From a virus (taxonomy: Duplodnaviria > Heunggongvirae > Uroviricota > Caudoviricetes), in IMG/VR virus record IMGVR_UViG_2537562189_000009: a stretch of 64,000 nucleotides of DNA; one strand, given 5' to 3'. Below the pieces are notes generated by a model that did no database searches, had not been told where the DNA came from, and saw only the letters and a list, made by a program, of their open reading frames with translations. Of this stretch, positions 19,802 through 19,942 are shown piece by piece; position 1 is the stretch's first letter; every line of letters begins with the position of its first letter. The position numbers and the translations under genes were made by a program.

Positions 19802-19942
19802 CTACTGCTTACACTGTAAGAACGCCGCAAACTCCGCTCCCCACAAATTCAGCCGGAACTCACACAGCGAACCGTGCAACATCCAGATAGTGAAGATAAC
19901 CGTCATACAAATTGTGACGGTGATAAGCGATTTTTGCGACAT
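19802..19942 (-). CDS. Candidate divergent Hok-family type I toxin (46 aa), unannotated small ORF
   Basis: RBS aaggag 9 nt upstream; MSQKSLITVTICMTVIFTIWMLHGSLCEFRLNLWGAEFAAFLQCKQ has TM helix plus SLCEFR...EFAAF pattern like Hok; 9-bp-stem hairpin just downstream. Confidence 0.45.
   Translation of the reverse strand: MSQKSLITVTICMTVIFTIWMLHGSLCEFRLNLWGAEFAAFLQCKQ

What the first reader, a model, noticed from the sequence alone, without database searches (positions are those of the whole stretch)
19802..19942. Unannotated second Hok-like type I toxin between the adhesin and OMP morons
A 46-codon ORF with a strong RBS (aaggag, 9-nt spacing) encodes one TM helix followed by SLCEFRLNLWGAEFAAFLQC, which parallels the Hok signature SLCE(I/V)R...EVAAF. 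It is below the 60-aa ORF threshold and sits in the AT-rich region between the YadA-like and Tia-like genes. A 9-bp-stem hairpin (gacggggac-gaaa-gtccccgtc) follows the stop. A canonical hok lies separately at 5486-5641.
Basis: partly seen in the sequence, partly recalled or inferred. Interest (0 to 1): 0.55.

Follow-up and report, generated by a model that had tools for sequence, protein, structure and literature searches.

The report
Second Hok toxin module in Stx phage
The 46-codon ORF is a real, already catalogued Hok-family membrane toxin gene with its own antisense-RNA antidote, and that antisense RNA is the one published as the phage "microRNA" 24B_1.

Summary
Window 19802-19942 (-) encodes a 46-aa peptide that passes Pfam HOK_GEF (33.2 bits, cut-off 22). 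It sits in a discrete ~390-bp module (19737-20125). The module has its own promoter and 5'-3' end pairing (tac/fbi) supported by compensatory changes. It also has a sequestered Shine-Dalgarno sequence and start codon, and a divergent ~64-nt Sok-like antisense RNA.

The gene is not new. RefSeq annotates exactly this ORF as "Hok/Gef family protein" (WP_000078907.1), PHROG 251 holds it, and about a third of complete E. coli genomes carry the module. It is unannotated only in older records (933W, Phi24B, Sakai). It is distinct from hokW, the canonical locus at 5317-5641.

Two points go beyond the finding:
- This 46-aa subfamily has no mok leader ORF, which is required in the plasmid R1 hok/mok/sok model.
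- The published 20-nt "microRNA-size" RNA 24B_1 of phage Phi24B maps exactly to 20015-20034 (+), inside the predicted Sok hairpin. Its published precursor and promoter are the ones I predicted for Sok. The 24B_1 papers I read never mention hok.

Toxicity and antitoxin action are inferred, not shown. Verdict: ordinary and already known as a gene; moderately interesting for the 24B_1 link.

The parts
20097..20125 (-). Predicted hok promoter: -35 TTGCCC (20125-20120), 17-nt spacer, -10 TAAATT (20102-20097). The predicted transcript start G20090 lies 7 nt downstream.
   Evidence: Read. The -35 TTGCx and -10 TAnnnT keep the same spacing in modules from unrelated contexts. The promoter lies just after the lom terminator at 20150-20132. 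It falls below the threshold of the promoter scan (none reported). There is no experimental transcript start.
19737..20090 (-). Conserved core of the hok mRNA (354 nt), from the invariant 5' GGGUGCC to the 3' GGCACCC.
   Evidence: blastn hits in 1750 E. coli genomes almost all span query positions 2-359 of 363. The fold has MFE -152.9 kcal/mol, z -6.7. The consensus structure has 82 pairs, 96.4% paired against 38-41% in slid controls, and 22 covarying pairs. Rfam RF01794 matches 19929-20090 at 36.4 bits, E 1.8e-6, below its gathering score of 59.
20074..20090 (-). tac-like 5' element, GGGUGCCUUUCGGCUGA.
   Evidence: It pairs with the 3' end in the full-length fold. Alignment columns 10-14 covary with 354-358 in all 5 pairs. 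Columns 10, 11 and 14 also covary with a second, local partner.
20032..20042 (-). Local alternative partner of tac (GGAAAGGCCCC), analogous to ucb or the metastable partner in R1.
   Evidence: It pairs with the 5' end once the 3' end is removed. The pairs 10:51, 11:50 and 14:47 show compensatory changes.
19979..20000 (-). Sok-recognition region on the mRNA (variable), with a YUNR motif (CUUA, 19991-19988).
   Evidence: It is among the least conserved segments of the module (mean column identity 0.76). YUNR sits at the same offset in 22 of 22 modules. In the full-length fold it pairs with 19762-19755, with 3 covarying pairs (helix 6). In the truncated fold it lies in a hairpin loop.
19964..19971 (-). 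Anti-Shine-Dalgarno element GCGCCUCU.
   Evidence: It pairs with the SD and the flanking AAGCGC in the full-length consensus (helices 7 and 8, 96-100% paired). In the truncated consensus it pairs with GAGGC instead (helix 4). The segment is 95% conserved.
19952..19957 (-). Shine-Dalgarno sequence AAGGAG of hok.
   Evidence: 9 nt before the ATG. AGGAG is kept in 20 of the 22 aligned modules, changed at one base in one, and shifted by one column in another.
19802..19942 (-). hok-family toxin CDS, 46 aa plus stop: N-terminal hydrophobic helix and C-terminal SLCE...AAFLQCK domain with two conserved Cys.
   Evidence: RefSeq annotates it as WP_000078907.1.
19822..19831 (-). UUUGCGGCGU inside codons 38-41; pairs with the start-codon stretch AUGUCGCAAA.
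   Evidence: Helix 9: 10 pairs, 99.1% paired, 7 invariant. The pairing persists in the truncated consensus fold.
19771..19792 (-). It is an internal 3'-UTR structure.
   Evidence: One search lists it. Helix 16 has 9 pairs, 5 of them with compensatory changes, 99% paired. No U-run follows it on the hok strand.
19755..19762 (-). 3' element GCUGAGGU that masks the Sok-recognition region in the full-length mRNA.
   Evidence: Helix 6 (alignment columns 104-111 with 341-348): 3 pairs with compensatory change, including UA<->CG split 9 to 9.
19737..19754 (-). fbi-like 3' element UCAGCCGAUAUGGCACCC.
   Evidence: Helices 1 and 2. Homology between modules, and with 933W, stops within 4 nt of its end.
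19948..19977 (+). Promoter of the antisense (Sok-like) RNA: -35 TTGACT (19948-19953), 18-nt spacer, -10 TAACCT (19972-19977).
   Evidence: The -10 is conserved in 22 of 23 modules (one has TATCCT), and the -35 is TTGACT or TTGCTC. The same boxes were published as promoter p24B_1 (PMC4426718). It falls below the threshold of the promoter scan.
19985..20048 (+). Predicted Sok-like antisense RNA (~64 nt): single-stranded 5' tail plus a 16-bp hairpin at 20003-20039. The 3' end is uncertain.
   Evidence: Fold -31.7 kcal/mol, z -5.6. The hairpin is more stable on this strand in 23 of 23 modules, mean difference -9.3 kcal/mol, because of G-U pairs. The published in-vitro '81-nt precursor of 24B_1' starts at this same G.
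20015..20034 (+). Exact match to the published 20-nt RNA 24B_1 (loop plus 3' arm of the Sok-like hairpin).
   Evidence: one exact match, none expected by chance. The sequence and 2223 reads are reported in PMC4426718.

Best explanation
Window 19737-20125 is a complete hok/sok-type type I toxin-antitoxin module carried as a moron between the Lom-like gene and the next phage gene.

Shown by sequence comparison:
- The minus strand gives a ~354-nt (or longer) mRNA for a 46-aa Hok-family peptide.
- In the full-length RNA the 5' end (tac) pairs with the 3' end (fbi).
- The Shine-Dalgarno sequence is paired with an upstream anti-SD.
- The start codon is paired with codons 38-41.
- The antisense-recognition region is paired with a 3' element.
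- The plus strand carries a promoter and a hairpin that is stable on that strand only, giving a ~64-nt antisense RNA complementary to mRNA positions ~43-106. A fragment of it has been sequenced in Phi24B lysogens as '24B_1'.

Inferred by analogy with plasmid R1 hok/sok:
- The full-length mRNA is stable and silent.
- Slow 3' trimming removes fbi, and tac then switches to its local partner.
- GAGGC captures the anti-SD, so the SD opens and the recognition loop with its YUNR motif is exposed.
- While the unstable antisense RNA is being made, it pairs with that region. This returns the anti-SD to the SD and/or triggers RNase III cleavage.
- When transcription of the module stops (loss of the element, or shut-off by an infecting phage), the antisense RNA decays first. 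Hok is then made, inserts in the inner membrane, collapses the membrane potential and ATP level, and kills or arrests the cell.

Unlike R1, no mok leader ORF is involved; control acts directly on the hok ribosome-binding site.
For: Toxin identity:
- Pfam PF01848 33.2 bits against 22; the best NCBIfam hit is HokA; PHROG 251.
- 45% identity to K-12 HokA; invariant C27, E28 and AAFLQCK.
- Purifying selection: median dN/dS 0.29, below 1 in 169 of 169 pairs.

Module nature:
- Present in 1750 of 5426 E. coli genomes with the same ends.
- Found in 933W-like Stx phages, at the ends of P2-like prophages, in lambdoid tail regions, in an O-island and on IncI/IncHI2 plasmids.

RNA architecture:
- Fold z -6.7.
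- 82-pair consensus, 96.4% paired against ~39% in slid controls; 22 covarying pairs; 0 of 500 shuffles reached the observed value on four of five measures (36 of 500 for further pair types).
- tac covaries with both fbi and a local partner.
- The truncated RNA refolds as predicted.
- SD accessibility changes in the expected direction: 0.19 to 0.40 to 0.19 for the window.

Antisense RNA:
- Conserved promoter and strand-specific hairpin.
- Variable recognition region with a fixed YUNR motif.
- 24B_1 reads, precursor start and promoter coincide with the prediction.
- Hfq binds the precursor with Kd 25 nM (PMC10732415).

No mok: no ORF in any frame, even with rare start codons, reaches the hok ribosome-binding site in the window, 933W or 8 other modules. 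Where one exists, its start and frame are not conserved. The positive control, hokW, does show such ORFs.

The R1 model is taken from PMC9841398.
Against: - No experiment shows that this peptide is toxic or that the antisense RNA neutralises it.
- The consensus promoter scan found no promoter on either strand. The hok promoter matches 8 of 12 positions, and the Sok -10 only 3 of 6.
- Rfam RF01794 and the NCBIfam HokA model are both below their curated cut-offs.
- No intrinsic terminator follows fbi in the window or in 933W, although relatives have one 25-45 nt downstream. The true 3' end here is therefore unknown.
- The antisense hairpin has a poor U-tail. Neither nor the ARNold search of the 24B_1 authors called it a terminator.
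- 24B_1 and its precursor were reported only 80 min after induction, not in the uninduced lysogen. A constitutive antitoxin would be expected to be present before induction.
- The predicted opening of the SD in the truncated RNA is modest (mean 0.20 to 0.27), and the start codon stays paired.
- The 22 aligned modules are related, so the shuffle controls overstate significance.
Confidence: 0.8

Rival explanations
1. The locus is a decayed, non-functional hok relic, like several chromosomal hok loci of E. coli K-12. It is conserved only because it travels with the phage.
For: - K-12 hokA is interrupted by IS150, and mokA and sokA are annotated there as pseudogenes.
- At least one relative (L021) has lost the 5' tac/promoter part.
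- The mok frame is absent. In R1, loss of mok translation abolishes Hok synthesis.
- Curated RNA and equivalog cut-offs are not reached.
Against: - The ORF is intact in all 24 copies read, with dN/dS ~0.29.
- Every regulatory element is kept by compensatory change across contexts that share nothing else.
- The SD, the anti-SD and the Sok -10 are the most conserved segments.
- The antisense strand is transcribed in Phi24B.
- Deleting the region changes phage behaviour (PMC4426718).
Confidence: 0.08
2. The functional product is the small RNA alone: 24B_1, a trans-acting microRNA-like regulator of d_ant and sdhB, as published. The overlapping 46-aa ORF is not expressed or is irrelevant.
For: - The published phenotypes of the deletion and of the multicopy plasmid.
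- Weak in-vitro pairing of the 20-mer with sdhB mRNA (8 +/- 5% bound).
- Hfq binding of the precursor (PMC4426718 and PMC10732415).
Against: - The 189-nt deletion (window 19954-20141) also removes the hok promoter, the whole leader and part of the SD. The 'overproduction' plasmid carries the entire hok/sok module. The published genetics therefore cannot separate the RNA from the toxin.
- Purifying selection on the peptide and the mRNA-wide covariation are not explained by a 20-nt trans-acting RNA.
- The 20-mer is the loop plus 3' arm of a terminator-like hairpin, a typical stable decay fragment.
- A trans role in addition to the antitoxin role is not excluded.
Confidence: 0.07
3. The ORF is a chance ORF in an intergenic region, and its Hok-like motif is a coincidence of hydrophobic composition.
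For: The ORF is only 46 codons long. Short hydrophobic ORFs are common.
Against: HMM E-values of 4e-8 (Pfam) and 2.8e-24 (PHROGs). 56 homologues, all named Hok/Gef. Conserved length and dN/dS.
Confidence: 0.01

Closest known systems
hok/mok/sok (parB) of plasmid R1
   Same: - A small single-pass membrane toxin of Pfam PF01848.
- A stable, highly folded mRNA closed by 5'-3' (tac/fbi) pairing.
- An alternative local partner for tac.
- A GC hairpin after the stop codon.
- A ~64-nt cis antisense RNA with a single-stranded 5' tail plus one hairpin. It is transcribed divergently from within the leader and does not overlap the hok SD.
- A YUNR motif in the target loop.
(the R1 model is taken from PMC9841398.)
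   Different: - No mok reading frame. The element that masks translation pairs with the hok SD itself.
- 46 aa rather than 52.
- The Rfam model built on canonical loci scores only 36 bits here.
- It sits in prophages, not at a plasmid partition locus.
- Processing, RNase III cleavage and killing are untested here.
hokA/mokA/sokA of E. coli K-12
   Same: The closest named protein: 45% identity, E 4e-12, and the best NCBIfam model (NF007290). Both share the W-M-x-x-x-S-L-C-E and AAFL-x-C-K motifs and the two C-terminal Cys.
   Different: It scores 38 bits against an equivalog cut-off of 89, so it is not a HokA orthologue. It is four residues shorter. K-12 annotates a mokA frame, and none exists here.
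hokW/mokW/sokW of Stx phages 933W and Sp5 (window 5317-5641)
   Same: It is carried by the same phage and belongs to the same Pfam and PHROG families. It is a type I toxin-antitoxin locus shown experimentally to be toxic, membrane-located and neutralised by its antisense RNA (PMC8621323).
   Different: Only 31% identical. 51 aa. It has an in-frame mok extension. It reaches the Rfam gathering score. It lies ~14 kb away, at the other end of the late region. In this window its mok start codon is ATA instead of ATG.
24B_1 'microRNA-size' RNA of phage Phi24B
   Same: It is the same DNA. The 20-mer is window 20015-20034 (+). Its published promoter boxes and precursor 5' end are those of the predicted Sok-like RNA. 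The Phi24B locus is 98.9% identical and encodes the identical 46-aa peptide.
   Different: It was published as a trans-acting regulator of d_ant and sdhB. The words hok, Sok and toxin-antitoxin do not occur in the 2015 and 2023 papers or the 2025 review. The published precursor is 80 nt long, against the 64 nt predicted here.

Membership tests
Hok/Gef toxin family (Pfam PF01848) | Match to the family HMM above the curated gathering score | tested here: met
   33.2 bits against a cut-off of 22, E 4e-8, profile positions 6-42 of 42. PHROG 251 E 2.8e-24.
Hok/Gef toxin family (Pfam PF01848) | A peptide of ~50 aa with one N-terminal hydrophobic helix and a polar C-terminal part carrying the conserved (S/D)LCE motif | tested here: met
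   Residues 6-23 (LITVTICMTVIFTIWMLH) are hydrophobic. S25, L26, C27 and E28 align with the same motif of HokA and HokW; C27 and E28 are invariant in 13 sequences.
Hok/Gef toxin family (Pfam PF01848) | Kills or arrests the cell by damaging the inner membrane when expressed | not testable with these tools
   No experiment on this peptide was found. HokW of the same phage is toxic (PMC8621323).
HokA orthologue group (NCBIfam NF007290, equivalog) | Score at or above the equivalog cut-off | tested here: not met
   38.4 bits against a cut-off of 89. It is a separate 46-aa subfamily found in Escherichia, Shigella and Salmonella.
hok/sok-type type I toxin-antitoxin locus | A cis-encoded antisense RNA with its own promoter that overlaps the toxin mRNA leader | tested here: met
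   Conserved -35 and -10 boxes and a hairpin stable on one strand only, in 23 of 23 modules. Reads and a promoter prediction were published for the Phi24B copy. Its antitoxin activity is not shown.
hok/sok-type type I toxin-antitoxin locus | Long-range pairing of the mRNA 5' end (tac) with the 3' end (fbi) | tested here: met
   Present in the MFE fold. 12 pairs, 98% paired; all 5 variable pairs change on both sides.
hok/sok-type type I toxin-antitoxin locus | An alternative partner for tac, allowing refolding (coupled covariation) | tested here: met
   tac alignment columns 10, 11 and 14 covary with columns 51, 50 and 47 as well as with fbi.
hok/sok-type type I toxin-antitoxin locus | A mok leader reading frame whose translation is needed for hok translation | tested here: not met
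   No ORF in any frame reaches the hok SD or AUG in the window, 933W or 8 other modules of 22. None is conserved. The same scan finds such ORFs, in frame with hokW, at the hokW locus, and 933W annotates mokW there.
hok/sok-type type I toxin-antitoxin locus | Match to Rfam RF01794 (the family named 'sok'; it matches on the hok-sense strand) at the gathering score | tested here: not met
   36.4 bits against 59. E 1.8e-6 in an 801-nt search, over the full model length, ending at the start codon. The hokW locus scores 111.5 bits.
hok/sok-type type I toxin-antitoxin locus | Activation by 3' processing, and RNase III cleavage of the sense-antisense duplex | not testable with these tools
   Only in-silico refolding is available.

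The most novel reading that the evidence does not exclude
The RNA published as the first functional bacterial 'microRNA-size' molecule, 24B_1 of Stx phage Phi24B, is a stable fragment of the Sok-type antitoxin RNA of this Hok module. The published deletion and multicopy phenotypes (quicker induction, altered lysogeny, lower ATP) would then be toxin-antitoxin dosage effects, not microRNA-like trans regulation.

In addition, this widespread 46-aa Hok subfamily works without mok. The antisense RNA would control the hok ribosome-binding site through an anti-SD / anti-anti-SD switch.
Probability: 0.5. Interest if true: 0.6.

Novelty: already known. Interest (0 to 1): 0.38.

Why it matters
As a gene it matters little. 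Hok-family loci are abundant in pathogenic E. coli (14 were counted in O157 Sakai), and this one is already named in RefSeq.

It matters more for three practical reasons:
- Stx phages of the 933W type carry two unrelated Hok modules. The only one studied is hokW, so experiments that delete hokW alone leave a second toxin in place.
- A decade of work on '24B_1' used a deletion and a plasmid that remove or amplify a whole toxin-antitoxin module without knowing it. Those conclusions need separation-of-function controls.
- The subfamily offers a natural mok-less version of the best-studied type I system. That makes it possible to test what the leader ORF is really needed for.

Tried and rejected
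- The Rfam gathering-threshold scan of the whole window did not report this locus. Only the permissive local scan did.
- The consensus promoter scan reported nothing on either strand. I kept the promoters only because of their conservation and the published prediction.
- The species-representative genome scan returned only 5 loci, three of them probably contaminant contigs (Xanthomonas, Planococcaceae, Vagococcus). Diversity had to come from E. coli genomes, plasmids and exact-protein look-ups instead.
- A mok frame was searched for in three frames with seven start codons and rejected.
- I considered the post-stop hairpin as the hok terminator and rejected it: there is no U-run on that strand, and fbi lies downstream of it.
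- I considered HokST of Salmonella SL1344 as experimental support for toxicity of this subfamily and rejected it. It is a 153-nt gene on pCol1B9, a different Hok.
- Literature searches for this gene under hok+933W+lom and under WP_000078907 found nothing.
- The T1TAdb paper and Fozo 2010 count Hok loci but give no statement on this locus or on mok-less loci.
- Structure prediction was not attempted. A 46-aa membrane helix would add nothing.
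Full report
**Observation**

The minus strand of window 19802-19942 carries an ATG-initiated 46-codon ORF, MSQKSLITVTICMTVIFTIWMLHGSLCEFRLNLWGAEFAAFLQCKQ. AAGGAG lies at 19957-19952, nine bases before the ATG. The hairpin GACGGGGAC-GAAA-GTCCCCGTC at 19771-19792 follows the stop. The separate canonical hok at 5486-5641 is also real. Rfam RF01794 scores 111.5 bits at 5317-5491, and the region is 92.7% identical to the annotated mokW/hokW/sokW of phage 933W. One detail is off: the module has 47-51% GC, and only the neighbouring 19450-19700 is AT-rich.

**Is it a Hok?**

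Yes.
- Pfam HOK_GEF scores 33.2 bits against a gathering score of 22 (E 4e-8).
- PHROG 251 scores 85.8 bits.
- The best NCBIfam model is HokA, but at 38.4 bits against an equivalog cut-off of 89.
- BLASTP gives 45% identity to K-12 HokA and 31% to the HokW copy of this window.
- The large protein database returns 56 relatives. The full-length ones are almost all 46 aa, and every one that carries a name comes from Escherichia, Shigella or Salmonella and is called Hok/Gef family protein.
- In the alignment, M1, Q3, K4, C27, E28, A39 and FLQCK are invariant within the subfamily.
- In 24 module copies the ORF is always intact. Pairwise dN/dS has a median of 0.29 and is below 1 in all 169 comparisons.

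The peptide is therefore a distinct 46-aa branch of the Hok family under purifying selection.

**Is it unannotated?**

Only in old records.
- Megablast against complete E. coli genomes finds the region in 1673 genomes. PGAP annotates exactly these coordinates as WP_000078907.1, 'Hok/Gef family protein'.
- The window is a 933W-like Stx prophage. The region is 100% identical to phage phiSTEC1589-Stx1c, and ~98-99% identical over window 19733-20180 to the 933W, VT2-Sakai and Phi24B group.
- Some phage records call the ORF 'MokW-like host killing'.
- 933W, Phi24B and the Sakai reference genome leave it blank.
- Fozo et al. counted 14 Hok/Gef genes in Sakai (PMC2887945).
- HokW, the Sp5 toxin studied by Takada et al. 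(51 aa; PMC8621323), is the other locus.

**A portable module**

A blastn search with window 19733-20095 finds 1750 of 5426 genomes. Almost every alignment spans query positions 2-359, with up to nine places per genome. The same ~355-nt unit occurs in several unrelated settings:
- after lom in Stx phages;
- after ogr at the ends of P2-like prophages next to serS, tRNA-Leu or pheT;
- between gpJ and a tail-fibre gene;
- in a urease island of O157;
- on IncI and IncHI2 plasmids;
- as tandem triplets.

Homology starts at a -35 TTGCC and stops a few bases after GGCACCC. Relative to 933W, the window has a 1,596-bp insertion carrying the YadA-like gene. Its junction lies 4 nt beyond that end.

**RNA anatomy of the sense strand**

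The predicted promoter is TTGCCC-17-TAAATT (20125-20097). It places the start at G20090, the first base of the invariant GGGUGCCUUUCGGCUGA.
- The 357-nt RNA folds to -152.9 kcal/mol (z -6.7), with the 5' end paired to UCAGCCGAUAUGGCACCC at the 3' end.
- On an alignment of 22 modules (A3), RNAalifold gives 82 pairs.
- 96.4% of cells are paired, against 38-41% when partners are slid by 1-3 columns. 22 pairs carry changes on both sides, and 0 of 500 shuffles reached the observed value on four of the five measures (36 of 500 for further pair types).

The helices that matter are:
- tac/fbi, where all five variable pairs are compensatory;
- the variable recognition region paired with GCUGAGGU near the 3' end;
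- GCGCCUCU paired with the SD and AAGCGC;
- AUGUCGCAAA paired with UUUGCGGCGU in codons 38-41, which explains the invariant nucleotides of the AAFL codons;
- the post-stop hairpin, where five of nine pairs are compensatory.

When the 3' end is removed, the consensus changes. tac pairs with GGAAAGGCCCC (20042-20032), and GAGGC.CUAAU pairs with AGGUUAG.CGCCUC. This places the recognition region in a loop and leaves the SD almost free. tac alignment columns 10, 11 and 14 covary with this second partner as well. That is the coupled covariation described for the hok mRNA family. Computed SD accessibility goes from 0.19 (full length) to 0.40 (truncated), and back to 0.19 when the antisense-complementary stretch is blocked. 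The means over 22 modules are 0.20, 0.27 and 0.21. The direction is right but the effect is small.

**The antisense strand**

On the plus strand the promoter is TTGACT (19948-19953), an 18-nt spacer, then TAACCT (19972-19977), followed by a start near G19985.
- The RNA 19985-20048 folds into a free 5' tail and a 16-bp hairpin (-31.7 kcal/mol, z -5.6).
- The -10 is conserved in 22 of 23 modules, and the -35 is TTGACT or TTGCTC.
- The lower stem holds G-U pairs that would be A-C mismatches on the other strand.
- The hairpin is more stable on the antisense strand in 23 of 23 modules, by 9.3 kcal/mol on average.
- The stretch opposite the 5' tail is among the least conserved parts of the module (0.76), next to its best-conserved parts (0.95 and 0.93).
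- A YUNR motif sits at the same loop offset in all 22 modules.
- Tandem copies differ in this stretch, as expected if each antisense RNA must recognise only its own mRNA.

**No mok**

In R1, translation of the overlapping mok frame up to the hok SD is required (PMC9841398). Here I allowed seven start codons and all three frames. No ORF reaches the hok SD or AUG in the window, 933W or eight other modules. Where one exists, neither its start nor its frame is shared by close relatives. The same scan finds upstream in-frame ORFs at the hokW locus, which 933W annotates as mokW. Two in-frame stops lie within 19 codons upstream of this hok. I therefore infer direct control of the hok ribosome-binding site: the antisense RNA sequesters GAGGC, the anti-SD returns to the SD, and the duplex may be cut by RNase III. 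This step is inference.

**Link to a published RNA**

A mini-review led to the 20-nt 'microRNA-size' RNA 24B_1 of Phi24B, which is encoded between lom and vb_24B_43.
- Its sequence, TAACGTTAAGTTGACTCGGG (2223 reads, PMC4426718), matches window 20015-20034 (+) exactly. This is the loop and 3' arm of the predicted antisense hairpin.
- The authors' promoter p24B_1 (TTGACT, CGCTAACCT) is the one described above.
- Their in-vitro precursor starts with GCTTAAGG, which is window 19985.
- Phi24B encodes the identical 46-aa ORF at HM208303 45784-45924, unannotated.
- Mapping their primers shows that the 189-nt deletion equals window 19954-20141. It removes the hok promoter, the whole leader, part of the SD and the antisense gene.
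- The pUC18_24B1 insert spans the complete module.
- The 2015 and 2023 papers and the 2025 review contain no occurrence of hok, Sok or toxin-antitoxin.
- In the searchable library, only a 2017 mini-review holds both 24B_1 and hok, and it treats them in separate sections.

The reported effects are lower ATP with the plasmid and quicker induction with the deletion. They are what altered Hok/Sok dosage might produce, but this is a reading, not a result. One point sits badly with a constitutive antitoxin: the RNA was reported only 80 min after induction.

**What remains open**

- No terminator follows fbi in the window or 933W, although relatives have one 25-45 nt downstream.
- The antisense RNA's 3' end is uncertain.
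- Both promoters fall below the scan's threshold.
- Toxicity, processing and antitoxin action are untested.
- The biological role is not decided by anything here. It could be prophage or plasmid stabilisation, exclusion of other phages, or help with lysis as reported for hokW. I favour stabilisation or abortive infection, because the module sits at the ends of prophages and on plasmids.

**Verdict**

The finding is correct in substance, but it describes a gene that public annotation already names. It belongs to the Hok/Gef family and works like hok/sok, with one tested departure (no mok). The added value is the identification of 24B_1 as part of its antisense RNA.

Noticed in passing
window 20015-20034 (+); L034 (Phi24B) 1083-1102: The published phage 'microRNA' 24B_1 and its 80/81-nt precursor coincide with the predicted Sok-like antitoxin RNA of this hok module. 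The published deletion and overexpression constructs remove or carry the whole toxin-antitoxin module.
   Followed up: yes
window 5429-5431 (+): At the canonical hokW locus of this window, the codon that is the mokW ATG in 933W is ATA (TCATACTAGAC against CCATGCTGAAC). In plasmid R1, mok start-codon mutants no longer make Hok, so hokW may be poorly expressed in this phage.
   Followed up: partly
window 18137-19732: Relative to 933W there is a 1,596-bp insertion: the YadA-like adhesin gene (18239-19450) plus a 28-32% GC upstream region. It lies between the start of the L0129 homologue and the hok module, with its right junction 4 nt past the fbi element.
   Followed up: partly
window 19450-19736 (-): No intrinsic terminator follows the hok 3' element here or in 933W, whereas most relatives have one 25-45 nt downstream. 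The hok transcript may read into the YadA-like gene here, or into L0129 in 933W.
   Followed up: no
L014 411-1707; L027 1858-3211: Three tandem copies of the module, ~472-498 nt apart, lie at the end of a P2-like prophage (L027, Salmonella) and next to serS in an E. coli record (L014). Each copy has a different antisense-recognition sequence.
   Followed up: partly
L021 2846-3210: A Salmonella copy keeps the intact 46-aa ORF and the 3' fbi element, but its 5' part (promoter and tac) is replaced by unrelated sequence. It may be a decaying copy.
   Followed up: no
L012 and L013 1354-1704: IncI1 and IncI-gamma/K plasmids carry a 45-aa version of the module; in L013 the next gene downstream is trbA. 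This suggests a plasmid-stabilisation role for the same subfamily.
   Followed up: no
window 42538-43023 (-), 48407-48589 (-), 2064-2152 (+), 47475-47565 (-): Other Rfam matches above gathering score in the window: two adjacent STnc100 copies, C4 antisense RNA next to isrK, and two sRNA-Xcc1 matches.
   Followed up: no
L004 (PQ600364.1) 90-2759: The GenBank record of the 100%-identical phage labels the YadA-like gene 'terminase large subunit', the Lom-like gene 'Bor' and the next gene 'endopeptidase Rz'. These appear to be annotation errors. The hok ORF there is labelled 'hypothetical protein'.
   Followed up: no
L016, L017, L019: Near-identical copies of this E. coli-type module sit on contigs labelled Xanthomonas pisi (an 857-bp contig), a Planococcaceae MAG (4.2 kb) and Vagococcus sp. 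(226 kb). This is most likely assembly contamination.
   Followed up: no
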